The translations under genes and the position numbers were made by a program. Positions 49,263-63,755 of a stretch of 64,000 bases of DNA are shown in pieces. The notes under the pieces are model-generated. The model had not been told where the DNA came from. It did no database searches and saw nothing but the letters and a program-made list of their open reading frames with translations. Location: NCBI GenBank assembly GCA_963827655.1, contig CAWHCF010000006.1, positions 267,022-331,021 on the forward strand, written 5' to 3'. Position 1 is the stretch's first letter. Each line of letters opens with the position of its first letter. Origin of the DNA: an uncultured Acidobacteriota bacterium (GTDB lineage: Bacteria > Acidobacteriota > UBA6911).

Positions 49263-50426
49263 ATGAATTCGCATAAGAATGGATTCCACGGGTTAGGAAT
49301 CGCTCCCAAGTTTCTGGACCTGCTTCACAAGAATCACTTCATCACTCCAACGCCGATCCAACGGCAGTCCATCCCGGTCGCTATCGAAGGTAAGGACATT
49401 ATTGGCATTGCCCAAACCGGCACCGGCAAAACACTGGCATTTGGAATCCCGATGTTGCAGCGGCTGATTCAGCACGGCGGCACCGGACTCATCGTGGAAC
49501 CCACCCGTGAACTCGCATTGCAGGTCGATGGGGCCCTGCAGAAAATTGGCCGTCCGCTTGGTTTGAAAACAGTCGTGCTCATTGGCGGCGAACCAATTGA
49601 GCGTCAGATCCGAGGTCTACAATTAGGCCCGATGGTGCTTATTGCGACACCGGGCCGGCTGATCGACCATTTGCAACGGAAAACGGTGCGTCTCAATTCC
49701 ACCCGGATACTGATTCTGGATGAAGCTGACCGGATGCTCGACATGGGCTTTGCCCCTCAGATTACAAGAATCTTGCAACACGTGCCGCAAGACCGGCAAA
49801 CCTTGTTGTTTTCGGCCACTATGCCGCCGGAAATTGTCACGCTGGCTGCCCGCTATATGCACTTGCCGGTTCGGGTTGAGGTGGCTCCAGCCGGCACGAC
49901 AGCAGCGGATGTTACTCACGAACTCTTTTTCGTTGAGAAGAAAGACAAGATCCATGTGCTTGAAAGTCTGCTGGCGGAATACCGCGGCAGTATCCTCGTC
50001 TTTACCAGGACCAAATTTGATGCAAAGCGAACCGCCCGTCTCATCCGGGCACTGGGCCACCGGGCTGCTGAGCTGCATTCCAATCGCTCGCTGTCGCAAC
50101 GCCGCGAGGCCCTGGATGGGTTCAGGCTGGGCAAATACCGGATCCTCGTGGCGACTGACATAGCCGCCCGAGGCATTGATGTCAGTGGAATTGAGCTCGT
50201 AGTTAATCATGATTTGCCGGCCACAGCCGGGGATTATGTTCACCGCATTGGCCGAACCGGGCGAGCCGGTCTGCCTGGACATGCGATATCTTTTGCCATG
50301 CCCCATCAGCGGGCAGACGTCAAAGGCATAGAGACGCTGATTCGTATGGCCTTACCGGTCTCGCGCTCGCCCATTCATAAACGCAATGCGCAGGTGCCCC
50401 AATCGTCGCGCCTCAGGAGGCGCTAA
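49263..50426 (+). CDS. DEAD-box RNA helicase (RhlE-like)
   Basis: Q motif, AQTGTGKT, PTRELA, DEAD, SAT, ARGID, HRIGRTGRAG. Confidence 0.95.
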   Translation: MNSHKNGFHGLGIAPKFLDLLHKNHFITPTPIQRQSIPVAIEGKDIIGIAQTGTGKTLAFGIPMLQRLIQHGGTGLIVEPTRELALQVDGALQKIGRPLGLKTVVLIGGEPIERQIRGLQLGPMVLIATPGRLIDHLQRKTVRLNSTRILILDEADRMLDMGFAPQITRILQHVPQDRQTLLFSATMPPEIVTLAARYMHLPVRVEVAPAGTTAADVTHELFFVEKKDKIHVLESLLAEYRGSILVFTRTKFDAKRTARLIRALGHRAAELHSNRSLSQRREALDGFRLGKYRILVATDIAARGIDVSGIELVVNHDLPATAGDYVHRIGRTGRAGLPGHAISFAMPHQRADVKGIETLIRMALPVSRSPIHKRNAQVPQSSRLRRR

Positions 50427-50444
50427 GCTATTGACAGCAAATAT

Positions 50445-50482
50445 GCCGGGGTGGCGAAACTGGCAGACGCACAGGACTTAAA
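50445..50482 (+). tRNA. tRNA-Leu(TAA) 5' half only, ending in the anticodon loop
   Basis: GCCGGGGTGGCGAAACTGGCAGACGCACAGGACTTAAA followed by non-tRNA sequence. Confidence 0.9.
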
Positions 50483-50557
50483 CGTCGAAGGCGGCAACTC
50501 CGCCAAGCCGTTGCAATTATTAACCCGCCTAACGTTTGTTCTTCGAATTCAACGATT

Positions 50558-50943
50558 CCGAAATATCTGAGTTCGGATCATGATCCTCTGTATCGGTTCC
50601 ATCAGTGGCAAGCGAACCTTCGCGTCCTCGGCATTACGGAGATCAAAACAGTGCCCTATGTGCCAATATCGCATCCGTTCGTCGAGCGACTGATTGGAAC
50701 TATTCGTCGCGAGTACCTGGACCGTACCGTGTTTTGGACAGCTGGCGACCTGGAATCGAAGCTATTGGAGTTCAAGGACTATTACAATCGACATCGCACT
50801 CACGCCAGTCTCGCCGGCAAAACACCGGAAGAAGCTCCTGGCGTCAATGTGTGCGTGACGCTGAAGTCATATAGATGGAGAGAACATTGTCGCGGATTAT
50901 TTCAGACGCCCACGGCGGCATAATTACGAACTCGCCATGCACA
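50558..50943 (+). mobile_element. IS remnant: rve/DDE integrase core C-terminus with terminal end (IS481/IS3-like)
   Basis: PKYLSSDHDPLY..HPFVERLIGTIRREYLD..YYNRHRTHASL; end reads ...GCCATGCACA (5'-TGT on the minus strand). Confidence 0.75.
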
Positions 50944-51019
50944 CGCCCGCGAAGGCAGGCCGAGGCACTCGAGGATCGCCGGATCGCATCCGGTGGATGG
51001 ATGGCGGCGAGAATCCGCA
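50944..51019 (-). repeat. IS91-like transposase C-terminal remnant, copy 1
   Basis: About 76 bp nearly identical to 54229-54305. Confidence 0.75.
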
Positions 51020-51124
51020 GGCGCTGACGCGAAGGCGCCCGTTCCGAGCAGATCGTTCCGAGTCGTCAGGTCCCCTTCATCTCGCCTGCGGCGAATCGAA
51101 GGCTCACTCACGGCGGGCCGCCCA

Positions 51125-51496
51125 CTACGGCACCGCGTCCCAGAGCTTGCTGACAATCCACCATCGCTCGCTGACCTTGAGCAGGTGGAAATGATCGATC
51201 ACGGTGCCGTGGTGATCGGTTTCCCGCACAGTCGCGGCGGCGACCCTGTTCGTCACCTCGATCTCGAGCACCTCACAATCGAACGGTTCTCCAGTTGCGG
51301 CAGGCGCGGGGTTGGCGCTGACCCAGTCATACAGAGCGGCAATCGGCGCGGCAATCAACTCGTCGCCGAGATAGCCGCATAGGATCGCCTGCTCGTGAAA
51401 GCCTCGCTTCAGCGTCTCGATGTCGCCAGTTCGCATGCCGTCGACGTAGTGTGCGATCGCCTCACGAATCCCTCGCTCTTCAGACGACTTGTCCAT
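51125..51496 (-). CDS. NTF2/SnoaL-like (lumazine-binding-like) protein
   Basis: AIAHYVDG..GD..L..GFH..A ... DHFHLLKV..RWWIVSK. Confidence 0.85.
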   Translation of the reverse strand: MDKSSEERGIREAIAHYVDGMRTGDIETLKRGFHEQAILCGYLGDELIAAPIAALYDWVSANPAPAATGEPFDCEVLEIEVTNRVAAATVRETDHHGTVIDHFHLLKVSERWWIVSKLWDAVP

Positions 51497-51536
51497 ATTG
51501 CTCCTGGGTGTCTCTCGGTGGAATGGCCGTGACCAG

Positions 51537-53884
51537 TCACGGCAGGTTCATCTTCTGCAGCAACGCCGTGACCCGCGGGTCGTCGGCGAGGCGGCGCAGG
51601 GGATCGCCATCCGCGGCGCCGGCAATTTCTCCCCGGAGGAACACCATCTCGCCATTTCGCTCCGCGAACGCCGTTTCGAGCCATTCAATCGCCTTCGCGG
51701 TGTCCCCGACGCGGCTGTAGACGCGCGCCAGACAGATGGCCGGCACGTACTGTTGCCGCCGCACCTCGAGCAACCGATGCAGGATCTCGGCCGCGTCGTC
51801 GTCTCTTCCCGCGAGACTGCAGGCCGAGGCCAGGTCCGCGACGACGATGTGGTGGCCGCCGAGCGACACGGCGGTCTTCAGCTGCTCGACGGCTCTGTCG
51901 AATTCGCCGCTGCTCAGATGGATGGCGCCCTGCAACCAGTAAGCGCCGTAGAAGTCAGGGTCACTCTCGATCATCTTCGCGGCTTGCGCTGACGCCTCGG
52001 CCAACATCCCCGCCGCAAAGTAGGTCCATCCGCCATTCATGTTGATGAGCGGCGCGAGCGGATCCAGTGTGAGCGCTTTCCTGTTCAGCCTGATGGCCTC
52101 GTCGAAGCGTCCGACAAAGGCGAGGAACATCGCGTAGTAGGACAGCGCCTCGGCGTTGTTCGGATTGAGGGTGATGGACTGCTTGAACTCCTGCTCTGCT
52201 CGCTGCCAGTCCCACTCGTAGAAGAACGTGATCATGGCCAGCGACAGATACGCGTCCGCCAGACCTCCGTCAATCGCCAACGCCTGGCTGCTGGCGGCCT
52301 TGCTCTGCGGAACCGTCTGTTCAGCGGGGAGAATGCCGAAGAACCACTGACATCCGCGCGACGCCGCAATCGCGGCGTAGGCCAACGCGTAGTCGGGCTG
52401 TTTCTCGATCGCCTTCTCGAAGAACTCGATCGCCCGCTTCCAGCCCTGAGCCGTGTATTTGTACGAGTGGTACCGGCCTTTCAAGAACAGCTCGTAGGCC
52501 TCGGCGTCCTCCGTGTAACGCCTCAGCACCGCCGCCTTCTCATCGCCGAACAGCGTCACTTTCAGCGCCTCGACGACGGCGAGGGTGATGTCGTCCTGGA
52601 GCGCGAAGATGTCGCGCATCTCGCGGTCATAGCGTTCGGACCACAGTTGGTAGCCGTCCGCGGCGTTGATCAACTGCACCGAGATGCGCACACGATTGCC
52701 CGATCGTCGGACGCTGCCCTCGACGACGTTGTTGACGCCCAGCGTCGTGGCGATCGCGCTGACGGTCGCGCTCTTGCCTTTGAACGAAAACGCCGACGTT
52801 CGTGCGGCGACCTTCAACGCGTCAATCTTGGAGAGCGCGTTCAACAGCTCTTCCGCCAGGCCGTCACAGAAATACTCGTCGTCTTCGTTCGCACTCATGT
52901 TGACGAACGGCAGCACGGCAACGGATTGCACTTTGTTGCGGTCCGACTGCGAGCCGGCGATGGCGGTGATGCCGACTTGCCGAAGCTGGGTGGCGCCTTC
53001 GCCGTCGGCGCGCGCGGGTGCGTGTCCACGAACGCCATGCGCGTCCAGCTCGTGCTTCACTTCGGTCAGGTCGCGCTGCAGATCCGTCGCCGTCTGATAG
53101 CGGCGGGCCTTGTCCTTCTGCAACGCCTTGCTGACGATTCCGGCGAGTCTCGGCGGAACATCCGTCAACGGTGGCGGCTCTCGTGTCAGCACGGCGGCAA
53201 TGACGTCGCTGACCGTGTCGGCCGCAAACGGCGACACACCCGACAGCATTGCGTACAGGACCGCACCGAAGCTGAAGATGTCCGTCTGGTGATCGACCTC
53301 TGTGCCACGAGCCTGCTCAGGTGACATGAACAGCGGCGTGCCGAGCAGCAATCCAAGCTGCGTCTGAACCTGCGTGCCTGTAGTGGCATCATCGCCAGCG
53401 CCGGCCTCGACAACCTGGCAATACCGAAGTCGAGCAGCTTGACCAGGCCGGTTGGCCGAATCATCACGTTGTCCGGCTTGAGATCGCGGTGAATGATGCC
53501 CGCGTGATGTGCCTCGACCAACGCCGATGCAATCTGGATCGCAATCTCCAGCGACGACGCGATGTTCAAGGACGCGTTTCGGACACGCTCGCTCAGCGTC
53601 GTGCCGTCGATGAACTCGTAGGCGATGAATGGGGTGCCTGCCGCTTCGCCAATGTCGTAGACGGTGATGATGTTCGGGTGATTCAGCGCCGATGCGGATT
53701 TCGCCTCGCGAATGAAGCGATGCAACCGGTCGCTGTCGACGGCGAACTCGGCTGGGAGAATCTTGAGCGCGACGCGGCGGTCGAGGCGTGTGTCCTGGGC
53801 GAGATACACCTCGCCCATCCCGCCCTTGCCGAGGGCGGCCACGATCTCGTAGTGCCCCAGCTGGGCGCCTTTGTCCACCTTCAT
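51537..53884 (-). CDS. Ser/Thr kinase with TolB-N-like and TPR domains (frameshift near 53415)
   Basis: GKGGMGEVY, HRDLKPDN, DFG; SVAVLPFVNMS..EYFCDGLAEEL; TPRs. Confidence 0.92.
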
Positions 53885-54028
53885 GTCGAGTGATCCGCCA
53901 GACGATTGTATCGACATGCCGGGCGTGTCGGCCGGGTGCCAGGCGGTTATCCGACGCTCTAGCGCCTGAGGCGGATAGGCCGAACAAGAGCCGTTTTCCT
54001 CGCGCCCCCCGGCTGCGGGGTCGGCCCA

Positions 54029-54058
54029 GCTTCCGATAAGGCAGACATTATGTCAACT
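54029..54058. other. XerC/XerD dif-like site
   Basis: GCTTCCGATAA-ggcagaca-TTATGTCAACT; both arms resemble dif arms, with an 8-bp centre. Confidence 0.6.
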
Positions 54059-54171
54059 CGAGCGCCCGGTCCGACCGTTCTGCGGCATCCGATTGGCCGA
54101 TCATAGACCAAAACTTTTAGGCTGGGATGAAATTTTGCAGGCTTTCGCCACGGCGGCGATCGGGCGGTCAC

Positions 54172-54335
54172 TCAGACCGGTTCATCAGGGTGAGAGGACG
54201 AGCGTCCCGCTGCTGAGGCGATCGGTGGCGCCCGCGAAGGCAGGCCGAGGCGCTCGAGGATCGCCCGGATCGCATCCGGTGGATGGATGGCGGCGAGAAT
54301 CCGCATGCGCCCAAGACAGCGCGGGCACTCGACGC
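54172..54335 (-). mobile_element. IS91-like (Y2/HUH) transposase C-terminal remnant, copy 2
   Basis: ECPRCLGRMRILAAIHPPDAIRAILERLGLPSRAPPIA. Confidence 0.7.
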
Positions 54336-54339
54336 GTGG

Positions 54340-54515
54340 CTGATCGCGCCGCCAGCCCGGAGCGGTCCGTGCTGCTCGATCGTATCTCGTACCGCGGCCG
54401 CGGCCAGATGCCGCCTCTGGCGACTTCGGTCGTCGACCGCGACGGCGTGGAACTGATACGGGATTGGATCCGCCGGATCGATGGCAGCCAGAGCCGCGAG
54501 AGCGGATCGAGGTAG
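54340..54515 (+). pseudogene. C-terminal fragment of a cytochrome c-type domain protein
   Basis: SPERSVLLDRISYRGRGQMPPLATSVVDRDGVELIRDWI*. Confidence 0.6.
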
Positions 54516-54812
54516 GCGCGGAGAATATTCTTTGAGAACTCGCTGCAAGATGGTTCTCGCTGGAGGCGATCCGTGGTTGCACCTCCGGTGTAACTTCCGA
54601 TTAGCCGTCCCGCAAACGGGTTTTGTCAGTGACTTGTGCAGCTTCGAGAACTTTCTCGATGCCCGTTCTCTGAGCGGTAAGGCTCCGGACATCTCTTCAA
54701 TCTTAGTTGTGCAGCAGAAAGAGATGACAGGATACCTGCGGGTTTGGAGCTGAGCTCAAGGTTGCTTTTCACGAACCTTGCATTCCCTGCGCCGAGCGAA
54801 CTGAATGCATGA

Positions 54813-57048
54813 TCAGGGCGCGTGCCCAATGCGCCGCAGCAGGTCTCGAAAGCGCGCATCTTGGCGAAGGCTATCGAACTTTGGATCTACTTTCACCCAG
54901 AGCCCCAGCCACCCGCTGCGGTCTTTGTAAGCTTTTTCGAGCCAGGTCAGAGACTGCTCCTTCTCCCCAAGTCCAGCATAGATGGTTGCTACGTCATAGG
55001 GCGAGACATACTTTCGCTTGGCAGTCTCCTCCAACTGTGCGATCACGGCTTGCGCCTCGGCGCTCTGGTTCGACACGGCACAAACATGTCCGAGCGAGGC
55101 CAAAACTTGCGGGCTGTCATTGAGTCGGCTCGCCTGGTTCAATTCGGTAATGGCTTCAGTAAACTTGCCCTGTTGTTCATAGGCCCAGCCGAGCATCAGG
55201 TGCGACCAATACAACTTTGGTTCCACCCCGATTGCCCGCCGGTATTGCTCAATGGCCTGCTCGTACTGGCGGGCGAAATAAAGAGAATCTCCCAGTCCCC
55301 ACAGGCCGAAGTCGTTCTGCGGGTCGGATTCCAGCGCCCGTTTCATTTCTGCCTGCGCTTCAGCAAACCGTCCCATCGCGATCAAGTACCAGCCGTAGAG
55401 TTGATGCGCTGTGTTGTATTCCGGGGCGAGCGCAATGGCGCGCTTGAATTCCTGTTCGGCCCCGACCCAATCCCACTCATATTGCAGCTTAATGATACCC
55501 AGGGAAATGTGCGCTGAGGCAGATGCCTCATCAAGCTGCAAAGCCTTCAAAGTGGCCGCCGCTGCTTTGGGCATCGCGTCGCGGGGGGAGATATGCAAGT
55601 CCGAAAGGAAACTCCACCCGGTAGCCAGTCCTTCGTAAGCCGAGGCAGACTTCGGATTCAGGGCGACGGCTCGATTGTAGTATTCGATTCCTTGCCTGAT
55701 CTCATTCTCAGTCCACCTGCCCACATAGAAGTTGCCCTTGAACTCAAGCTGCTGAATTTTGAGGTTCTGCTCCAGCCTGAAGTACAGCCAGCTTCCGACG
55801 CCGACGAGGACAAGCACCAAAAAAGCGGAGGCGCCTAAGACAACCTCACGGCGTTTGTTCATTTTGCCGCCTGCAGGCGGGACCGCGAACTTTTCCCCGC
55901 GTTCTTCCTGTGTTCTGCCGGAGCGTTTCTTTTCCTCTGAAGCGAAGTCCAGGTCTCGCTGCAACCCCTTCAGGGCAGCCAGTAGGTCGCGCGCGGTTTG
56001 ATAACGCTCTCCACGATCCTTGCGTAGCGCGCGGCTGACGATATGCTGCAATTCTGGTGGCGTCTCCGGCGCGTGCTCACCGAGTGGCGGCGGTTCATCT
56101 TTCAGAATCGCGGCAATTAGTTCGCTCGCCGTCGCGTCCGCGAATGGCGCGCGTCCTGCAATCATCTCGTAGAGCATCACGCCGAGGCTGAAGATGTCGG
56201 TGCGCGCATCCACCTTCTCGCCCCGCACCTGCTCAGGTGACATATAGCGCGGCGTGCCCATCACGACGCCCGTCTCGGTGGTGACCGCGGCTACCGTCGG
56301 AGCCGGCCTGCCTATCGGCGGCGAGAACGGCTCGGTCAGCTTGGCCAGGCCGAAGTCCAGCACCTTAACGATGCCGTCGTGCCGCACCATGACGTTTTCC
56401 GGCTTGATATCTCGATGCGTGATCCCGGCTTCGTGTGCGGCTGAGAGCGCGGCGGCAATCTGACCCGCGATATCAATCACTTGTGACAGATTCATCCGTT
56501 TCTGCGGCGCGCTCACTATTCGCTGGCGCAGCGTCTCGCCCTCGACGTATTCGGTGATGATGTAGTGCGTGCGGCTCGACTTCGCCGATCTCGTGAATCG
56601 TGATGATGTTAGGATGATTGAGCGCGGAGGCTGCGCGCGCCTCCTGAGCGAAGCGGCGCACGCGATCCGCGTCGGTAGTGAACCTGGCGGGCAGCAGCTT
56701 GACGGCGACTTTGCGTCCCAGCCTGGTGTCGAGCGCAAGATGGACTTCGCCCATTCCGCCATGCCCCAGCGCCGACAGGAGTTGATAAGCACCGATCCGG
56801 GCTGGCGTCGCTATCGGCGGAGTCTGTGCGCCAGACAGCGACACCAATTCTGTGGCCGCGACTTCGAAGACGGGTGCCTCGATGAAACTGCCGACCTGGT
56901 CATCGTAGGCGAGCAATGACGCGACTTCGCGGCGCAGTTCTTCATCGCCCATGCAGGCTTCATCGAGGAACGCCGCGCGCGACTCCGGCTCGCGTTCCAC
57001 CGCGGCTTGGTAAAGCCGTTCGATTTGTGCCCAACGTTCAGGTGTCAC
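54813..57048 (-). CDS. Ser/Thr kinase with TM helix and TPR repeats (frameshift near 56575)
   Basis: GTG start TPERW overlapping the sigma stop; [20 protein letters not shown]; TPRs. Confidence 0.92.
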
Positions 57049-57622
57049 TCGAGTCTTCTCCGCGCAGTCTGCGCAACAACCACGACTTAGCCAGCCGCCA
57101 ATCGCGGTGGACTGTCTCAACCGAGACGTTGAGCGCGCCGGCCGTCTCTTCCACGCTGAAGCCCCCGAAGAAACGCAACTCCACTACGTGACCTTTGCGC
57201 GCGTCAATTTCTGCCAACGCTTTGAGCGCCTCATCGAGCGCGAGCAGGCTTGTATCTCGCTCTGGACTCACCACCAACGCCTCATCGAGCGAAACCTGCG
57301 GAGCGGAGCCGCCGCGCTTCCGGCTGCGGCGCGCGCGCGCGAGGTCCACGAGCACCTGGCGCATCAAGCGCGCAGCGGCGCCAAAGAAGTGCCTGCGGTT
57401 TTCCAACCGCACTTGATCCGCATCAACCAACCGCAGATAGGCTTCGTGAATGAGCGCCGTGGTTTGCAGCGTATGACCGGCACGTTCGCTGCGCATGTGG
57501 TGTTTAGCCAGCCGGCGCAATTCGCTGTAAACCAGCGGTATCAATTGATCGAGCGCGGTTTTATCGCCTTCGCTCCAGGCCAGGAGCAGTTGTGTAACTT
57601 CGTGTGAATTTGACGCCGGCAT
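57038..57622 (-). CDS. ECF sigma factor, kinase-associated (TIGR02999/ECF43-like)
   Basis: [41 protein letters not shown]. Confidence 0.93.
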
Positions 57623-57951
57623 AGGGTGGCTTCGCCGAATTTCAGATTGGCTTAGGCTACTTTGAACTGGTGATCCCATCACTTTTCATTTCGATCGCCT
57701 CAAAAACTTTCGCACACCTTGCAGATTTTCACCGCAATTTACGCATGGAGTGGCGAGGCGCGAAATGAGATTGCGCCCAATGAAGCTGCTGGAGTCATGG
57801 TCGCCTGGGCATCGACGGCCTCATTTTAGCTCACGGCTCCGGACCAGGCAATTCTCGGGACGCTCAGCATCCGCGAGGGGTAGCGAGCAGTTGGCCGAGC
57901 GCCCAATCCGGCGCCGGCTTGGATAACCGGCGGCGCCTAAAGGAGATCTTC

Positions 57952-58218
57952 ATGAGCATCGTGATGGTACGAGACGCACTGCTGTGGTGCGCGATCATCA
58001 ATTTCGGGTTATTGGCTGTGTGGTCGCTGCTTTTCGTGATGTCGCACGAATGGCTGCATGGGCTCTGGAGCAAACGGTTCCGTCTCCCGGTTGACCAGTT
58101 TGATGCGATCAACTTCGCCGCGATTGTGCTTTACAAAACAGGCATAGTCCTGTTCAACCTCACGCCTTATATCGCCCTGCGAATCGCCGGATGGCTGTGG
58201 CAGTGTGATTTTTCATGA
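57952..58218 (+). CDS. Small membrane protein (DUF6868-like)
   Basis: LLWCAIINFGLL..FDAINF..YK..LFNLTPYIAL; RBS AAGGAG. Confidence 0.72.
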   Translation: MSIVMVRDALLWCAIINFGLLAVWSLLFVMSHEWLHGLWSKRFRLPVDQFDAINFAAIVLYKTGIVLFNLTPYIALRIAGWLWQCDFS

Positions 58219-59438
58219 GACGCTCATCGCTGCCGAATCGAATGAGGCCAGTCTCTCCCGACGAGCGCAACGTCGCTTTGGACGCTTTGCGCGGCGCGGC
58301 GCTGTCGGGCGTGTTGATGGTCAACCTGCTGGCCGGCTTTCGCATCTCGTTGTTCGAGCACATCTTTACGTTTCACACGCATCCCGGCTGGGCCAATCAC
58401 GCAGTGGACCTACTGACAGCGTGGCTGTTCGAGTTCAAAGCCTTCACACTGTTTTCGTTTATGTTCGGCGTGGGCGTAGGCGTTCAGGCCGAGCGCGCGG
58501 CGTCACACAAGATCGGCTTCCGGCGCTTTTTTGTCCGGCGTTTTACCGCGCTTCTCGCTCTGGGACTCTGCCACATGTTCCTGATCTGGAACGGCGACAT
58601 CCTCACACTGTACGCCGTCTGCGGCCTGATGCTTATTCCACTCGTCAGCCTGCCTACCAGGCTGATGGTTGCGTTAGCCGTTGCGGTTGCTGTGCTGATG
58701 TTTGTTGTGCCGATCTTCGACAGCCTTTTCCCGACAGAACTGGCGATGCGTGCGCACGCCGTCGTCGCCACACGCGTCTATGCGGAAGGAAGCTGGGCGG
58801 AGATTCTGGTGCTACGCTTCAGGACCTGGCGGCTCATCGCCCCATTTCTTGTCAGTGTCTTACCAAGAACCTTTGGACTGATGTTGCTTGGCATCGCCGC
58901 GTGGCGCGTCGGCGTATTGAAGCGACCGGCACAGCATCGCAACTTGCTACAAGCCATGCTCGTCGGAGCGGGCATCCCCGGCGCGGTGACAACTACTCTG
59001 CTGGTCTGGTCAGAATCAACAGGGCAGTCGCCACCGATCTCGCCCGCATGGTTACGACCTCTCTCGTCTATCCCGCTGGCATTCGCTTTCGGCGCCGGCC
59101 TTTTGCTGTACTTCAGTTCTGCTCGCGCCGGACTGCTGACTCGATTGTTTGCCGCCGCCGGTCAACTGTCGCTCAGCAACTATCTGGCCCAATCTATGAT
59201 CTTCAGCGTGATTTTCTATGGGTTTGGATTCGGGCTTTTCGGACAACTCGGATCGGCAGCAGCGGCACTGATCGGAGTTGCTGTCTTCGTGGGGCAACTC
59301 GCGGCGAGTTACCTCTGGCTTCAGCGCTACGGGTTTGGTCCGGCGGAGTGGCTCTGGCGCTCTCTGACTTATGGACGCTGGCAGCTGTTAAGACGAACTA
59401 CGGGGCATACTTCTGCCGCATCGGCTACGAACTCGTGA
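58215..59438 (+). CDS. DUF418 (YeiB-like) membrane protein
   Basis: LDALRG.AL.G, KAFTLFSFMFG, GDIL..YA, GQLSLSNYLAQS, GPAEWLWRSLTY. Confidence 0.9.
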   Translation: MRRSSLPNRMRPVSPDERNVALDALRGAALSGVLMVNLLAGFRISLFEHIFTFHTHPGWANHAVDLLTAWLFEFKAFTLFSFMFGVGVGVQAERAASHKIGFRRFFVRRFTALLALGLCHMFLIWNGDILTLYAVCGLMLIPLVSLPTRLMVALAVAVAVLMFVVPIFDSLFPTELAMRAHAVVATRVYAEGSWAEILVLRFRTWRLIAPFLVSVLPRTFGLMLLGIAAWRVGVLKRPAQHRNLLQAMLVGAGIPGAVTTTLLVWSESTGQSPPISPAWLRPLSSIPLAFAFGAGLLLYFSSARAGLLTRLFAAAGQLSLSNYLAQSMIFSVIFYGFGFGLFGQLGSAAAALIGVAVFVGQLAASYLWLQRYGFGPAEWLWRSLTYGRWQLLRRTTGHTSAASATNS

Positions 59439-59519
59439 AGTGTCGACCGCCCGATGGTAGCTAAATCGCCACTGTTCGAGATTGCAGCCGGGTGCCAAGA
59501 ACCTCAATTCTGCCATCAA

Positions 59520-60085
59520 TGGCGAAGGCCTAAACTGATCGCCACAGACGGCTTCCAGTCTTACAAGAGAGTTGTCCGTCGCATTTTGGGGTCAGCGTGT
59601 CTGTACGGCCAGGTGATCAAGACTCGCAGGAACGATCGCATCATCAAGGTCGAGCGAAGAACGCTGATCGGCGACGCGTGGCGATTCGAAGAGACGCTGC
59701 GCGACTCCGAGGACTCCTCGAAACTGAACACGTCTTTCGTCGAGCGGCTGAACCTCACGATCCGACAGGGCTCGGCCTATCTTTTTCGGCGGACGATCTA
59801 CCACGCGCGATGGAAGGAGCGTCTCGAAGATCACATGGAGTTGCCTCGCTAAAACTTCCTTAGGCCTCACATGGCGTTGAAGTTCGGACGCGAGATGAGG
59901 ACGCCGGCGATCCAGGCTGGACTAACGACGCGACGGCTGACGTTAAGGGAGATCTTCCCGTCGGCGATGACTTTCTTGAAATCGACGAGAGTCATGTTCG
60001 CATTCGGCAAATCCACGTTCTCGCCAACTGTCGATGAGACGCGAATGCCTCTGGCGGCATAACAAGAATTGATGACGGAAGCACC
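59520..60085 (+). mobile_element. IS1-like transposase remnant with terminal inverted repeat
   Basis: LIATDGFQSY, YGQVIK, NTSFVERLNLTIRQ, RTPAIQAGL; end reads GGTGCTTCCGTCAT on the minus strand. Confidence 0.72.
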
Positions 60086-60154
60086 TCAGACACAATCCGC
60101 ATTTTGCAGCTAGTTCCCGTCAAATCACCATCCCTGTAAGTCATTGTTTTTCAG

Positions 60155-60209
60155 TGCCGAGGGCGGGACTCGAACCCGCACGCCCCTTGCGGGGCCCAGG
60201 ATTTTAAGT
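60155..60209 (-). tRNA. tRNA-Leu(TAA) 3' half only (att-like), inverted relative to the 5' half
   Basis: Minus strand ACTTAAAATCCTGGGCCCCGCAAGGGGCGTGCGGGTTCGAGTCCCGCCCTCGGCA; long variable arm, T-arm, no CCA. Confidence 0.9.
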
Positions 60210-60259
60210 TCGAGACCCGCCCGGGCACTATGTGTCACAATCGGTCAACATCGGAATCT

Positions 60260-60347
60260 AATCAACGACTTAGAGTAGAATTCCGTACTTCACTTTTTCA
60301 CTTGTTTCCGATTCCCACTCGATAGTTCGGACAAAGTTTGGACAAAG
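60260..60347. other. att arm region: IHF site plus arm-type direct repeats
   Basis: AATCAACGACTTA at 60260-60272; GGACAAAG twice at 60329 and 60340; a second IHF-like site at 60137-60149. Confidence 0.65.
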
Positions 60348-60948
60348 CTCGCGATTTGGATGAGCGTGGATGATTTAATAGGTTTCAGGAAGTTCGCCCT
60401 TTTCTCCGCGAACATAGTAGCAGTCATGGGTACCGTCCGGTCTGGAATTGCTCGGAGGACGATATGCGCCTGGACCTCGCCGCTCAATAACCGGCACAGA
60501 GTGGATTCTGACATACATGGTGACACCCATATGCCAAGCGGACGCGGGTAGCAGTGTTTGTATTCCGTCACGCCTTAGCTGAGCAAGAGATTTTGCGCAC
60601 CCAGCCGCCTAGTCCGGAGTGCAAGCGAACGCGGCACGATCATGAACCACCGACGACCTGCCTCCTTCGCATCACCGATACCAACGGCGTGCTGCCTGCG
60701 ACTACCTCAGCCGGCCAGCATTAGGCTGGGGCACGAACACGCGTTCACGAACCACATACCACGCCTGACGGGTGGGACGTGGTGTACTGCGTCACGTTCG
60801 GGATTGATGAACATTCAGGCGACCGCACCCAGAGGGCCAAAAGGAGGGAATGCCGCCGGGGAATCGACTCTGATCAGGTTGCCCGAAAGCATGTGATACG
60901 ATGCATGCAGGCAGGTCCTGCGCCCTGCCGATGTGCTAAAGTTGCCGC

Positions 60949-61212
60949 GTGGCTAAACACGAAAAAACGCTACTTCACGTTTTACGCGGCACTTCAGACG
61001 CAAACATCTCTTTTAACGATTTATGCCAGTTGTTACGCCACCTTGGCTTTGACGAGCGCATTCGAGGCAGTCATCATATTTTTACGAAAGAAGGCGTCGG
61101 GGAGATTCTGAATCTTCAGCCTAAAGATGGAAAAGCGAAGCCGTATCAGGTGAAACAAGTACGCGGGGTGATTCTTCGCTACAAATTAGCGGGAGAAAGC
61201 GATGAACAATAA
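60949..61212 (+). CDS. hicA: HicA family toxin
   Basis: ISFNDL..LL..LGF.ERIRGSHHIF..NLQP..GKAKPYQVKQV. Confidence 0.9.
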   Translation: MAKHEKTLLHVLRGTSDANISFNDLCQLLRHLGFDERIRGSHHIFTKEGVGEILNLQPKDGKAKPYQVKQVRGVILRYKLAGESDEQ

Positions 61213-61420
61213 GTACAAGTACGAGGTTATCATTTATTGGAGCGAAGAGGATAAGGCATTCATTGCCGAGGTTCCGGAGTTACCAGGCTGCGCTGCGGAC
61301 GGAGCTACATATGCAGACGCTCTTGCGAATGTACAAGTGATCATTGATGAATGGATTGAGACAGCAAACGAACTGGGTCGCCCAATACCTGAGCCCAAAG
61401 GACGATTAATATACGCGTAG
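61202..61420 (+). CDS. hicB: HicB family antitoxin (short form, no DNA-binding domain)
   Basis: YWSEED..FIAEVPELPGC.ADG.T..AL..WIE.A...GRPIPEP; overlaps hicA. Confidence 0.9.
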   Translation: MNNKYKYEVIIYWSEEDKAFIAEVPELPGCAADGATYADALANVQVIIDEWIETANELGRPIPEPKGRLIYA

Positions 61421-61721
61421 GACTTGATAACCGGCGCTTCCGCCGACAATTGAAGACCGCGTAAGGGTAAGAAATTCGGCCGATTGCAAGGGCGTGCAGT
61501 TCTGTGGTTGCAGCGGAAACGATCGCGTTTCTCAGCCGAGGCCAACGGTGTGTGAATGCAGTCCTACACAGGCATCGAGGCGATGATCGAACGGTTGCTG
61601 GACAGCGATGGCATGTGAGCGAACCGTGCCGTGAGGCAGATCAGTATCAGGTGCAGAGTATCGAGTGAACTCAGGCCGCGGCCATCAAGCAAAGTGCGAC
61701 GAGTGCCGATGAGCATTCGCC

Positions 61722-63318: not shown

Positions 63319-63755
63319 GTCGTCCGCTTCTGCTGTCAGCTTATAGGGATTTGTCATTCTGTCCTAAATTCTGTACCTGGCGATTCGCAGCCTCGCCGTC
63401 ATTTCCATCCACGCGACGAGGACGAATTGTCGCAATCCTTCGATTTTCCGATCTTCAAACGCTGCAACCAAATTGAAACCGGGCTATCAAAGGGTGAACG
63501 TTAGTCCGACGCAGCTGAGCCATTACTCAGTCCTATTCGCTTGCCTGACGCTCCCCACTGCAGAGCTTCATGCCTCATATTTGGCGTTCCGAGAGAATTC
63601 GCGAGAAAGATGCTGTCATTGATATGACCTGAAAGTTGCAGAAGAGCGACCTGCGTCAAGGCTCGGTTCTGGTGGGCGCCCGTCCAGCCCGGCATGCGTT
63701 CGATGACCGTTATAGTACTGGGATCAAAGAAGGTTCAGATTTTTGTCATAAGACC

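What the first reader, a model, noticed from the sequence alone, without database searches (positions are those of the whole stretch)
50445..60209. Split tRNA-Leu(UAA): complementary halves in inverted orientation that one 9.7-kb inversion would rejoin
Seen: the 5' half (+) ends ...CAGG-ACTTAAA and the 3' half (-) begins ACTTAAA-ATCCTG.... The shared 7-bp cores are at 50476-50482 and 60203-60209, inverted. Joined, they give a complete tRNA: anticodon stem CAGGA/TCCTG, acceptor GCCGGGG/CCTCGGC with one G-U pair, long variable arm, A discriminator. The non-tRNA flanks would join as TCGAA-CTTAAAC-GTCGA, a weakly symmetric att-like site, and IHF sites and arm repeats flank the 3' half. Known: tyrosine integrases cross over at anticodon loops but normally restore the tRNA; tRNA-Leu(UAA) reads the TTA codon, which is rare in high-GC genomes and regulatory in Streptomyces (bldA). 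Inference: either a recombinase-controlled ON/OFF switch for UUA decoding that also flips an ECF/kinase cargo, or a tRNA-disrupting integration later flipped by the adjacent IS1-like element. No recombinase gene lies in the window, and genes here (yraN, the helicase) contain TTA codons.
Basis: partly seen in the sequence, partly recalled or inferred. Interest (0 to 1): 0.82.

Follow-up and report, generated by a model that had tools for sequence, protein, structure and literature searches.

The report
tRNA-Leu(UAA) gene split by inversion
The only tRNA gene in this draft genome able to read the leucine codon UUA is cut in its anticodon loop, with its two halves 9.7 kb apart on opposite strands, which looks like the scar of a mobile element recombined the wrong way round at its usual tRNA docking site rather than a genetic switch.

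Summary
Window 50445-50482 (+) and 60156-60209 (-) are the two halves of one tRNA-Leu(UAA) gene. They overlap by the 7-mer ACTTAAA. Flipping 50483-60202 in silico gives a clean 87-nt tRNA that is 77-85/87 identical to nine relatives' genes.

The interpretation changes. The sequence right of the second core is not an unrelated partner site. It is a truncated tRNA-Leu 3' end on the + strand (60208-60229, 20/23), so this junction is head-to-head tRNA DNA. Three relatives carry ordinary elements at this tRNA, with a direct 3'-half repeat that starts at G29/G30. One of them has a tyrosine integrase 42 nt from the tRNA.

Best reading (about 45%): an integrated element was inverted by a wrong-alignment exchange at the quasi-symmetric anticodon-loop att core, and the resulting palindromic joint was later trimmed by deletion. 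No recombinase lies on the contig. The neighbouring IS remnants do not abut the cores.

TTA occurs in 54% of long ORFs and in rpoB and rpoC, so an OFF state would be lethal, not regulatory. The assembly is about 90% complete, indel-prone (rpoB and rpoC are frameshifted) and also lacks tRNA-Phe. An intact copy probably lies in unassembled DNA. Public reads could not test orientation.

The parts
49263..50426 (+). DEAD-box helicase gene, ending 18 nt upstream of the tRNA 5' part. It contains 3 in-frame TTA codons.
   Evidence: Pfam DEAD 6e-49 and Helicase_C 2e-27; TTA count
50445..50482 (+). 5' part of tRNA-Leu(UAA), positions 1-37: acceptor 5' strand, D arm, anticodon stem 5' strand and most of the loop. 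About 25 nt of upstream flank are shared with relatives.
   Evidence: 37-38/38 identical to 9 relatives
50476..50482 (+). Core ACTTAAA (tRNA positions 31-37) at junction J1. This is the only copy of the 7-mer on this strand in the window.
50483..50557 (+). 75-nt arm 'X' directly after the core. It is unique in the genome and is neither tRNA nor clearly IS. In the model it is the reversed right arm of the element.
50558..50944 (+). 5'-truncated remnant of an IS481-like (rve DDE) transposase gene, C-terminal ~120 aa, 74% identical to the reference copy C10:61679-63057.
51537..53987 (-). Ser/Thr kinase with TPR repeats, split by a frameshift (N-terminal kinase lobe in the overlapping frame 53186-53917).
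54813..57120 (-). Second Ser/Thr kinase with TPR repeats, also split by a frameshift (frames 54813-56792 and 56473-57120).
57038..57682 (-). ECF sigma factor (PF07638 type). It belongs to a family present on at least 18 contigs of this genome.
58215..59438 (+). DUF418 multi-pass membrane protein. It is not a recombinase. The overlapping 419-aa frame is non-coding by GC3.
59454..60088 (+). Remnant of a multi-copy DDE-type IS (weak IS240/IS6-type Pfam hit). It ends 68 nt from the tRNA 3' end, where an integrase gene would be expected.
60134..60149 (-). Downstream-flank motif (AACAATGACTTACAG in tRNA sense) that accompanies tRNA-Leu(UAA) 3' ends and their att repeats in relatives.
60156..60209 (-). 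3' part of tRNA-Leu(UAA), positions 31-87: loop, anticodon stem 3' strand, long variable arm, T arm, acceptor 3' strand, discriminator A.
60203..60209 (-). Core ACTTAAA at junction J2 (reads TTTAAGT on the + strand). This is its only copy in the window.
60208..60229 (+). Fragment F: a truncated, slightly diverged tRNA-Leu 3' end (positions 66-88, 20/23). It is on the same strand as the 5' part and lies head-to-head with the inverted 3' part. In the model it is the trimmed original attR repeat.
   Evidence: inverted repeat I1 15 nt 93%; 1/2000 shuffles
60260..60275 (+). Second copy of the downstream-flank motif (AATCAACGACTTAGAG), belonging to fragment F. It forms inverted repeat I2 with 60134-60149.
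   Evidence: 16 nt, 81%
61202..61420 (+). HicB-like antitoxin gene in the unique region right of J2.
63372..63720 (-). Second IS481-like remnant (3' end, 86% to the C10 copy), on the opposite strand to the first and 280 nt from the contig end.

Best explanation
This is a rearrangement scar at a tRNA attachment site, not a device. In this bacterial family, tyrosine-integrase elements integrate into tRNA-Leu(UAA) with the crossover in the anticodon loop. That leaves an intact tRNA (attL) and, some kb downstream, a direct repeat of the 3' half (attR). I infer that the window once had that ordinary layout: helicase, then tRNA (attL), then a ~9.7-kb element, then a 3'-half repeat (attR), then flank. 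The element was then inverted by an exchange between the two att cores aligned the wrong way round. An equivalent route is excision followed by re-integration in the wrong orientation. Such a mistake is conceivable because the anticodon stem arms are symmetric and the 7-nt loop has a palindromic TTAA centre. The exchange creates exactly two new joints. J1 is the 5' half joined to the reversed element arm. J2 is the 3' half lying head-to-head with the other 3' half. J2 is a palindrome, which bacteria do not tolerate (recalled), and it was trimmed by a short-homology deletion that left the 22-nt fragment F. The tRNA gene is inactive in this arrangement. Because UUA decoding is essential here, the organism most likely has another intact tRNA-Leu(UAA) in the ~10% of the genome that is not assembled. 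Shown: the halves, fragment F, the flank motifs, the element family in relatives, and the lack of a local recombinase or an IS end at either core. Inferred: the ancestral layout, the wrong-alignment exchange, the trimming, and the extra copy.
For: (1) The halves rejoin into a canonical tRNA 77-85/87 identical to 9 relatives' genes. (2) J2 is head-to-head tRNA DNA. 60208-60229 (+) matches tRNA positions 66-88 at 20/23 (1/2000 shuffles), and the downstream-flank motif is duplicated in inverted orientation. Fragment F lies on the same strand as the 5' half and at the far end of the segment, where an attR repeat would sit. (3) In 3 of 17 relatives' tRNA-Leu(taa) loci, a direct 3'-half repeat lies 4.5, 5.5 or 8.9 kb downstream. 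Its identity starts at G29/G30, within 1-2 nt of the ACTTAAA boundary here. The 8.9-kb element encodes a 397-aa tyrosine integrase (PF00589 7.8e-19) 42 nt from the tRNA. (4) By the coordinates, 9 of this genome's 20 PF00589 hits lie within about 400 bp of a tRNA gene. (5) A second locus (C49:478063-478129) has the same anatomy: an inverted 3' half from ACTTAAA followed head-to-head by a tRNA 3'-end fragment (15/17, 1/2000 shuffles). (6) Passages read in PMC8371274 say that the 7-nt anticodon loop with its palindromic stem matches the 7-bp overlap plus core-site layout of tyrosine-recombinase att sites, and that integrases are linked to chromosomal inversions. A passage in PMC5882170 attributes tripartite ICE formation to chromosomal inversions. 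(7) Both halves are undecayed while F has diverged, which fits an old integration and a recent flip.
Against: No integrase gene or remnant lies in the segment or anywhere on contig C6. The segment shares nothing with the three relatives' elements beyond the tRNA repeat, and its GC content is unremarkable, so its identity as an element is unproven. J1 does not fit the idealised product exactly. After CTTAAA the sequence reads C-G-T..., where the model predicts G-T..., so one extra base is unexplained. The C49 junction has no matching '5' half | arm' partner anywhere in the assembly. No other genome searched shows the same scar. However, the only pattern search for it (0 of 137) did not match this genome's own junction either, so it excludes only untrimmed palindromes. 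Wrong-alignment exchange by a tyrosine integrase at a natural tRNA site is my inference. I read no paper that documents it. No reads could be examined for either junction.
Confidence: 0.45

Rival explanations
1. This is a single site-specific or microhomology-mediated inversion between the intact tRNA's anticodon loop and a fortuitous inverted ACTTAAA that happened to lie 9.7 kb away. This is essentially the first reader's geometry. No integrated element or attR is involved, and fragment F is an unrelated older att remnant that happened to sit beside the partner 7-mer.
For: One reciprocal inversion explains both junctions. The two arms next to the cores (50483-50572 and 60210-60800) are unique in the genome. 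No element genes are recognisable in the segment.
Against: TTTAAGT is rare, with 38 copies in 8.18 Mb, which gives about 0.05 expected in 10 kb. For it to lie by chance exactly against a tRNA-Leu 3'-end fragment on the correct strand is a further coincidence. The same head-to-head anatomy recurs on C49.
Confidence: 0.17
2. This is an assembly or consensus artefact. The organism's genomes carry the intact orientation, or a mixture of both. The contig reflects a mis-joined or minority path in an error-prone, probably long-read, metagenome assembly.
For: The assembly is demonstrably imperfect. It has 53 contigs and is 90% complete. rpoB and rpoC are each split by a frameshift, and both kinases in the window are frameshifted. 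tRNA-Phe(GAA) and tRNA-Gln(TTG) are also missing. A genome with no UUA decoder should not be viable.
Against: Indel errors do not create inversions. The two junctions are reciprocal and share only 7 bp, which is too short to confuse an assembler. J2 carries a specific trimmed structure that a mis-join would not produce.
Confidence: 0.13
3. The two pieces are independent remnants. The 5' part is a tRNA-Leu pseudogene truncated in the anticodon loop by a separate event, such as a failed or non-restoring integration or a deletion next to the IS481-like element. The inverted 3' half is an ordinary attR/attP relic of another element. Their complementarity would then be a by-product of integrase breakpoints clustering in this loop.
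For: att-type 3' halves that start at this loop are common (3 of 17 relatives' loci; plus C49 here). The same IS family lies 77 nt downstream of the intact tRNA in G023 and near the C49 copy. Two relatives from other families of the class have two tRNA-Leu(taa) genes, so multi-copy ancestry is possible.
Against: It needs two events with breakpoints exactly 7 nt apart. Both pieces are undecayed, and only one 5' part exists in the genome. It does not explain the head-to-head fragment F.
Confidence: 0.12
4. This is a programmed, recombinase-driven invertible switch that turns UUA decoding on and off, and also flips the sigma/kinase cargo.
For: The two halves are perfectly conserved and precisely rejoinable. 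No intact copy is in the assembly.
Against: There is no recombinase on the contig. TTA is in 2570/4796 long ORFs and in rpoB and rpoC, so OFF would be lethal. Nothing comparable was seen in the 17 relatives' tRNA-Leu loci examined. One junction is a trimmed palindrome, so flipping back would leave a truncated attR, which looks like decay rather than design.
Confidence: 0.05
5. This is a functional split tRNA. The two halves are transcribed separately and are assembled or ligated in trans, as in Nanoarchaeum.
For: Both halves are intact, and no other tRNA-Leu(UAA) is assembled.
Against: The trailer and leader are not complementary: duplex -23.9 kcal/mol against a shuffle mean of -27.8, with 408/500 shuffles as good or better. 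The leader folds onto the 3' half's own acceptor/T arm (-44.5 kcal/mol). No promoter-like site precedes the 3' half. The halves overlap by 7 nt instead of abutting. No Rfam family, including group I introns, is found in 49800-61200.
Confidence: 0.02

Closest known systems
Genomic islands or prophages integrated by tyrosine integrases at the anticodon loop of a tRNA gene (anticodon-loop sublocation of Williams 2002, as cited in PMC8371274)
   Same: The break lies in the 7-nt anticodon loop flanked by the symmetric stem. A 3'-half repeat runs from the loop to the tRNA 3' end plus flank. Relatives show the canonical form at this very tRNA, one of them with an integrase next to it.
   Different: Here the repeats are inverted instead of direct. 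The tRNA is not restored. No integrase is present on the contig. One joint is a trimmed head-to-head palindrome.
Integrase-associated chromosomal inversions (Thermococcus pTN3 integrase; tripartite ICEs of Mesorhizobium)
   Same: Inversions arise at or through tRNA-linked att sites of integrated elements (passages read in PMC8371274 and PMC5882170).
   Different: As far as I know (recalled, not stated in the passages read), the tRNA genes stay intact in those cases. In the passages read, the exchanging sequences are identical segments as short as 104 bp. Here the exchange would be a mis-aligned event at one 7-bp core, and it destroys the gene.
Split tRNA genes of Nanoarchaeum equitans and Caldivirga (archaeal trans-spliced halves; recalled, and listed in PMC4033280, of which I saw only the search listing and abstract start)
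   Same: The 5' and 3' halves are encoded at separate loci, and the break is near the anticodon loop.
   Different: There are no complementary leader/trailer sequences, no promoter-like site for the 3' half, and a 7-nt overlap of the halves. The lineage is bacterial.
bldA, the regulatory tRNA-Leu(UAA) of Streptomyces (recalled)
   Same: It is the same tRNA species in a GC-rich genome in which TTA is the rarest Leu codon (2.0%).
   Different: TTA is not confined to a few non-essential genes here. It occurs in 54% of long ORFs and in rpoB and rpoC.

Membership tests
tRNA-targeting tyrosine-integrase element (anticodon-loop att site) | A repeat of the tRNA 3' part that starts in the anticodon stem/loop and runs to the 3' end | tested here: met
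   In the window, 60156-60209 starts at A31. Relatives' repeats start at G29/G30.
tRNA-targeting tyrosine-integrase element (anticodon-loop att site) | Integrase gene next to the tRNA/attL | tested here: not met
   There is no PF00589 hit on C6 and no remnant by tblastn with 7 integrases (all E > 0.1). The feature is met in relative G017.
tRNA-targeting tyrosine-integrase element (anticodon-loop att site) | Repeats in direct orientation, with the tRNA restored at attL | tested here: not met
   The halves are inverted and no intact gene is present. Fragment F is in direct orientation relative to the 5' part.
Programmed invertible DNA switch (fim/hin/shufflon type) | A dedicated recombinase encoded in or beside the invertible segment | tested here: not met
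Programmed invertible DNA switch (fim/hin/shufflon type) | Both orientations present in the population | tested here: inconclusive
   No public run holds more than 39% of the sampled words, and no laid contig bridges a junction.
Programmed invertible DNA switch (fim/hin/shufflon type) | The arrangement is conserved in relatives | tested here: not met
   All 17 relatives' tRNA-Leu(taa) loci examined carry an intact gene, and none shows an inverted 3'-half copy. No same-genus genome is held.
IS-mediated inversion | Inverted copies of one IS at both breakpoints, with IS termini or target duplications at the joints | tested here: not met
   IS homology starts 75 nt from the core. The termini TGTCGATGG... 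/ TGTTCCTGG... are unlike the arms. The remnants are 74% and 86% identical to the reference copy.
Large-serine-recombinase att site | LSR gene linked to the site, with homologues sitting at the same target | tested here: not met
   An LSR lies 1.45 kb from the C49 copy. However, 0 of 9 homologue loci hold a tRNA or a Leu 3' half, and homology to the closest homologue stops at the LSR's 3' end. No LSR is on C6.
Split tRNA gene (trans-assembled) | Complementary leader/trailer sequences and independent expression signals | tested here: not met
bldA-like regulatory tRNA | Cognate codon absent from essential genes | tested here: not met
   There is 1 TTA in rpoB and 1 in rpoC, and 2570/4796 long ORFs contain TTA.

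The most novel reading that the evidence does not exclude
The inversion is reversible in vivo. A trans-encoded integrase, one of the ~20 in this genome, would flip the 9.7-kb block at the anticodon-loop core. That would toggle the cell's only tRNA-Leu(UAA) and give a heritable, population-level growth-arrest or bet-hedging switch that acts through a single codon.
Probability: 0.05. Interest if true: 0.85.

Novelty: new variant of a known kind. Interest (0 to 1): 0.35.

Why it matters
If the model is right, this locus is a natural example of an orientation error at a tRNA att site. The quasi-symmetric anticodon stem-loop would have let an element be flipped or inserted backwards, which destroys the tRNA instead of restoring it and leaves a palindromic scar. 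That would be a documented failure mode of tRNA-targeted integration. It would also be a caution for annotation: a 'missing' tRNA may in fact be present in two inverted pieces.

It also bears on the use of integrases whose core sites are near-palindromic, where orientation fidelity matters.

If instead no other tRNA-Leu(UAA) exists in the complete genome, the locus would become much more interesting, because the cell would need either reversion or trans-assembly to live. As it stands, in an incomplete and indel-prone draft genome, it is most safely read as a rearrangement scar of modest general interest.

Tried and rejected
Public reads. The look-up of sequencing runs found only soil and rhizosphere metagenome runs, kept as contigs, holding at most 39% of the sampled words. 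Read laying on X1, X2, X4 and X20 gave short pieces only, and no contig bridged either junction. The loose ends at 50482 (ATCCTG...) differ from this genome's 3' half and have varied upstream sequence, so they look like other organisms' intact genes. The reads therefore give no evidence about orientation either way.

Metagenome comparators. The search for related loci with the helicase returned 80 loci with at most 65% aa identity. I scanned 14 of the 80, the 14 listed first (L014-L027), for tRNAs. None has tRNA-Leu next to the helicase.

Synteny. An ECF-sigma/kinase pair lies downstream of tRNA-Leu in G014. I rejected this as evidence because sigma hits occur on 18 contigs of this genome and the window's copy ranks only 8th.

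Large serine recombinase. This idea was rejected.

ACTTAAA as an IS target duplication, or IS-mediated inversion. Rejected.

Fuzzy searches for the arms X, Y and Z genome-wide gave only noise.

My T-arm motif scan for orphan tRNA ends was too permissive, with 353 mostly spurious hits. It was not used.

The pattern search for head-to-head junctions in 137 genomes of the class found none. This genome's own junction does not match the pattern either, so the search excludes only untrimmed palindromes. G034, flagged unpublished, is among the genomes counted.

Other negatives. Rfam: no family in 49800-61200 at E <= 1. Composition: GC is unremarkable, and the AT skew of the segment is an outlier while its GC skew is not, so this is inconclusive. 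The segment has no homology to the relatives' three elements. There are no contig-end overlaps linking C6 to C49.

No supplementary files were consulted.

Papers. For PMC8371274 and PMC5882170 I read only the passages returned by 'find'. All other papers were seen only as search listings and abstract starts. I did not find, in those two searches, a paper describing a bacterial tRNA gene split by a mis-oriented att exchange. That is not a claim that none exists.

Full report
WHAT IS THERE. The window is the last 64 kb of contig C6 of an 8.18-Mb, 53-contig draft genome that is 90% complete by marker genes. At 50445-50482 (+) lies the 5' part of a tRNA-Leu(UAA) gene, ending ...CAGG-ACTTAAA. At 60156-60209 (-) lies the 3' part, beginning ACTTAAA-ATCCTG. 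ARAGORN sees no tRNA-Leu(taa) in the window. After a virtual inversion of 50483-60202 it calls a clean 87-nt gene with one G-U pair in the acceptor stem, a long variable arm and discriminator A. The rejoined gene is 77-85 of 87 identical to the intact genes of nine family relatives, and its first 38 nt are 37-38/38 identical. About 25 nt upstream of the 5' part and a short motif downstream of the 3' part also resemble relatives' flanks. ACTTAAA and its complement each occur once in the window, at exactly these sites, against 51 and 38 copies in the whole genome.

The sequence immediately right of the second core is not an unrelated partner. 60208-60229 (+) aligns to tRNA positions 66-88 at 20/23, and only 1 of 2000 shuffles reaches that score. 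The repeat finder reports it as an inverted repeat of 60161-60175 (15 nt, 93%). A second inverted pair (60134-60149 / 60260-60275, 81%) corresponds to the downstream-flank motif. Junction 2 is therefore a head-to-head joint. A full 3' half with its flank lies on the minus strand. It faces a truncated, slightly diverged tRNA 3' end ('F') with its own flank on the plus strand. F is on the same strand as the 5' part and sits at the far end of the 9.7-kb block. A second locus, C49:478063-478129, has the same anatomy. It has an inverted 3' half starting at ACTTAAA, joined head-to-head to a tRNA 3'-end fragment (15/17, 1/2000 shuffles). A third perfect 13-nt fragment lies about 125 nt away. Outside these two loci, remnants of this tRNA are not enriched: 16 hits against 25 for a reversed-probe control.

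WHAT RELATIVES SHOW. No same-genus genome is held. All 17 relatives' tRNA-Leu(taa) loci that I examined carry an intact gene. Two genomes from other families of the class (G040, G033) have two intact copies each. In 3 of the 17 loci (G002, G017, G033), a direct repeat of the 3' half lies 4.5, 8.9 or 5.5 kb downstream. Its identity starts at G29/G30, within 1-2 nt of the boundary seen here. It runs to the 3' end and is followed by a flank carrying the same CAA...ACTTA motif. The G017 element encodes a 397-aa tyrosine integrase (PF00589 7.8e-19, SAM-like N domain) 42 nt from the tRNA. The G033 element keeps a 219-nt stretch homologous to the tRNA-proximal end of the G017 element, where its integrase gene ends. 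So elements that cross over in this anticodon loop exist in the family. The '3' half from ACTTAAA' pieces in this genome have the anatomy of their attR repeats. In this genome, by the coordinates, 9 of the 20 PF00589 hits lie within about 400 bp of a tRNA gene. The closest homologue of the G017 integrase (C41, 47-59% identical, in two frames) sits beside a different, 74-nt tRNA.

MODEL. The ordinary layout would be: A, tRNA (attL), flank1, element, arm, 3'-half repeat (attR), flank2, B. An exchange between the two cores aligned antiparallel inverts the element. Excision followed by re-integration backwards gives the same result. The exchange yields exactly two novel joints: '5' half | reversed arm' (J1) and 'inverted 3' half | 3' half' (J2). 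The stem arms CAGGA/TCCTG are symmetric, and the loop CTTAAAA and its complement share a TTAA centre (4 of 7 positions), which makes such an error conceivable. J2 would be a ~50-bp-arm palindrome. A deletion of roughly positions 40-66 in one arm, with 1-2 nt of homology at the joint, leaves what is observed. The C49 joint fits a similar deletion through an AGTC homology. Passages in PMC8371274 support two premises. One is that the anticodon loop plus its palindromic stem mirrors the 7-bp overlap and core sites of tyrosine-recombinase att sites. The other is that integrases are linked to chromosomal inversions. A passage in PMC5882170 attributes the origin of tripartite ICEs to chromosomal inversions. 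The instability of long palindromes is recalled knowledge.

WEAK POINTS OF THE MODEL. There is no integrase or remnant on C6. The place where one would be expected, next to the tRNA 3' end, is occupied by a multi-copy DDE-type IS remnant (weak IS240/IS6-type Pfam hit) that ends 68 nt from the tRNA. The cargo is two frameshifted Ser/Thr kinases with TPR repeats, an ECF sigma factor and a DUF418 membrane protein. It is not diagnostic of a mobile element, and it shares nothing with the relatives' elements. GC content is unremarkable. AT skew is an outlier but GC skew is not, so composition is inconclusive. J1 has one base more than the idealised product. The C49 joint has no '5' half' partner in the assembly.

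ALTERNATIVES TESTED. IS-mediated inversion or a target duplication is rejected. Homology to the IS481-like element begins 75 nt from the core. Its termini are unlike the arms. The two remnants in the window are 74% and 86% identical to the reference copy. A large serine recombinase lies 1.45 kb from the C49 copy. However, 0 of 9 homologue loci hold a tRNA or the Leu 3' half, and homology to the closest homologue ends at the gene's 3' end. A functional split tRNA is not supported. The trailer/leader duplex is no better than shuffles (408/500 as good or better). The leader would lock the 3' half into a -44.5 kcal/mol hairpin. There is no promoter-like site and no Rfam family, including group I introns.

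DOES THE CELL NEED THIS tRNA? TTA is 2.0% of Leu codons and occurs in 2570 of 4796 long, coding-like ORFs. This ORF set is crude because the ORFs run from stop to stop. rpoB and rpoC each hold one in-frame TTA, and the neighbouring helicase holds three. UUA decoding is therefore essential, and a regulatory OFF state as in Streptomyces bldA (recalled) is implausible.

No intact tRNA-Leu(taa) is found in the assembly by ARAGORN (46 tRNAs) or Infernal (41 hits). But tRNA-Phe(GAA) and tRNA-Gln(TTG) are missing too. The assembly is also indel-prone. rpoB and rpoC are each split into two frames, and both kinases in the window are frameshifted. The likeliest resolution is a further intact copy in unassembled DNA. 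Multi-copy states exist in the class. The indel rate also means that single-base details at the joints, and the three homopolymer-length differences in the C49 copy, carry little weight.

WHAT COULD NOT BE TESTED. Orientation heterogeneity and read support for the joints could not be tested. The public runs found are soil metagenomes holding at most 39% of the sampled words, kept as contigs, and none bridges a joint.

VERDICT. The 'switch' reading is not supported. The most coherent explanation is a mis-oriented recombination of an integrated element at the anticodon-loop att site of tRNA-Leu(UAA), followed by trimming of the palindromic joint (confidence about 0.45). The rivals are a fortuitous-site inversion, independent remnants, and an assembly or consensus artefact. 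It is a new variant of a known kind, namely tRNA-att-site rearrangement, and of modest interest unless a closed genome shows that no other tRNA-Leu(UAA) exists.

Noticed in passing
G000 contig C8:77634-86284 (outside the window): rpoB is split into two overlapping open frames (1161 and 392 codons) and rpoC into two (573 and 828 codons). Both Ser/Thr kinase genes in the window (51537-53987 and 54813-57120) are likewise frameshifted. The assembly evidently carries about one indel per few kb of coding sequence.
   Followed up: partly
G000 contig C49:478063-478255: This is a second cluster of tRNA-Leu(UAA) debris. It holds an inverted 3' half from ACTTAAA, a head-to-head 3'-end fragment (15/17) and a third perfect 13-nt 3'-end fragment. 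A 689-aa large serine recombinase lies 1.45 kb away, with IS110 and IS481-like remnants on the other side.
   Followed up: partly
G000 contigs C49 (930-1814 and 480700-481587), C45 (119996-120805), C19 (84065-84952), C17, C26: The genome has six large serine recombinase genes. Four of them sit at or near contig ends, which suggests repeated LSR-bearing elements that break the assembly. Window 61468-61679 is 88.6% identical to the 220 nt just upstream of the LSR at the start of C49.
   Followed up: partly
L105 (G023:C138) 10179 onward; window 50558-50944; C49:475989-476450: The same IS481-like family recurs just downstream of tRNA-Leu(UAA) sequences. A full copy lies 77 nt after the intact tRNA in G023, and remnants lie near both tRNA-Leu loci of this genome. 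This may reflect a target preference or a shared hotspot.
   Followed up: no
window 60134-60149 and 60260-60275; relatives' loci L004-L012, L110, L111, L118: A short motif (..CAA(C/T)..(G/A)ACTTA(C/G)..) follows tRNA-Leu(UAA) within about 10-35 nt in many family members. It is also present after the att repeats, so the elements' attP seems to copy it. Its function is unknown; a terminator, a processing signal or a recombinase site are possibilities.
   Followed up: no
window 61202-61420 (+): A HicB-like antitoxin gene (PF15919 4e-8; phrog_497) lies in the otherwise unannotated unique region right of junction 2. I did not look for a partner HicA.
   Followed up: no
window 57038-57682 and whole genome: ECF sigma factors of the PF07638 type paired with Ser/Thr kinases are highly multi-copy in this genome. 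Sigma hits fall on 18 contigs and kinase hits on 36.
   Followed up: no
G000 contigs C27, C40, C29, C41, C44, C46, C13, C52, C31: By the coordinates, nine of the 20 tyrosine-integrase hits lie within about 400 bp of a tRNA gene. One is a fragment next to tRNA-Leu(CAA). tRNA-linked islands are abundant in this genome.
   Followed up: no
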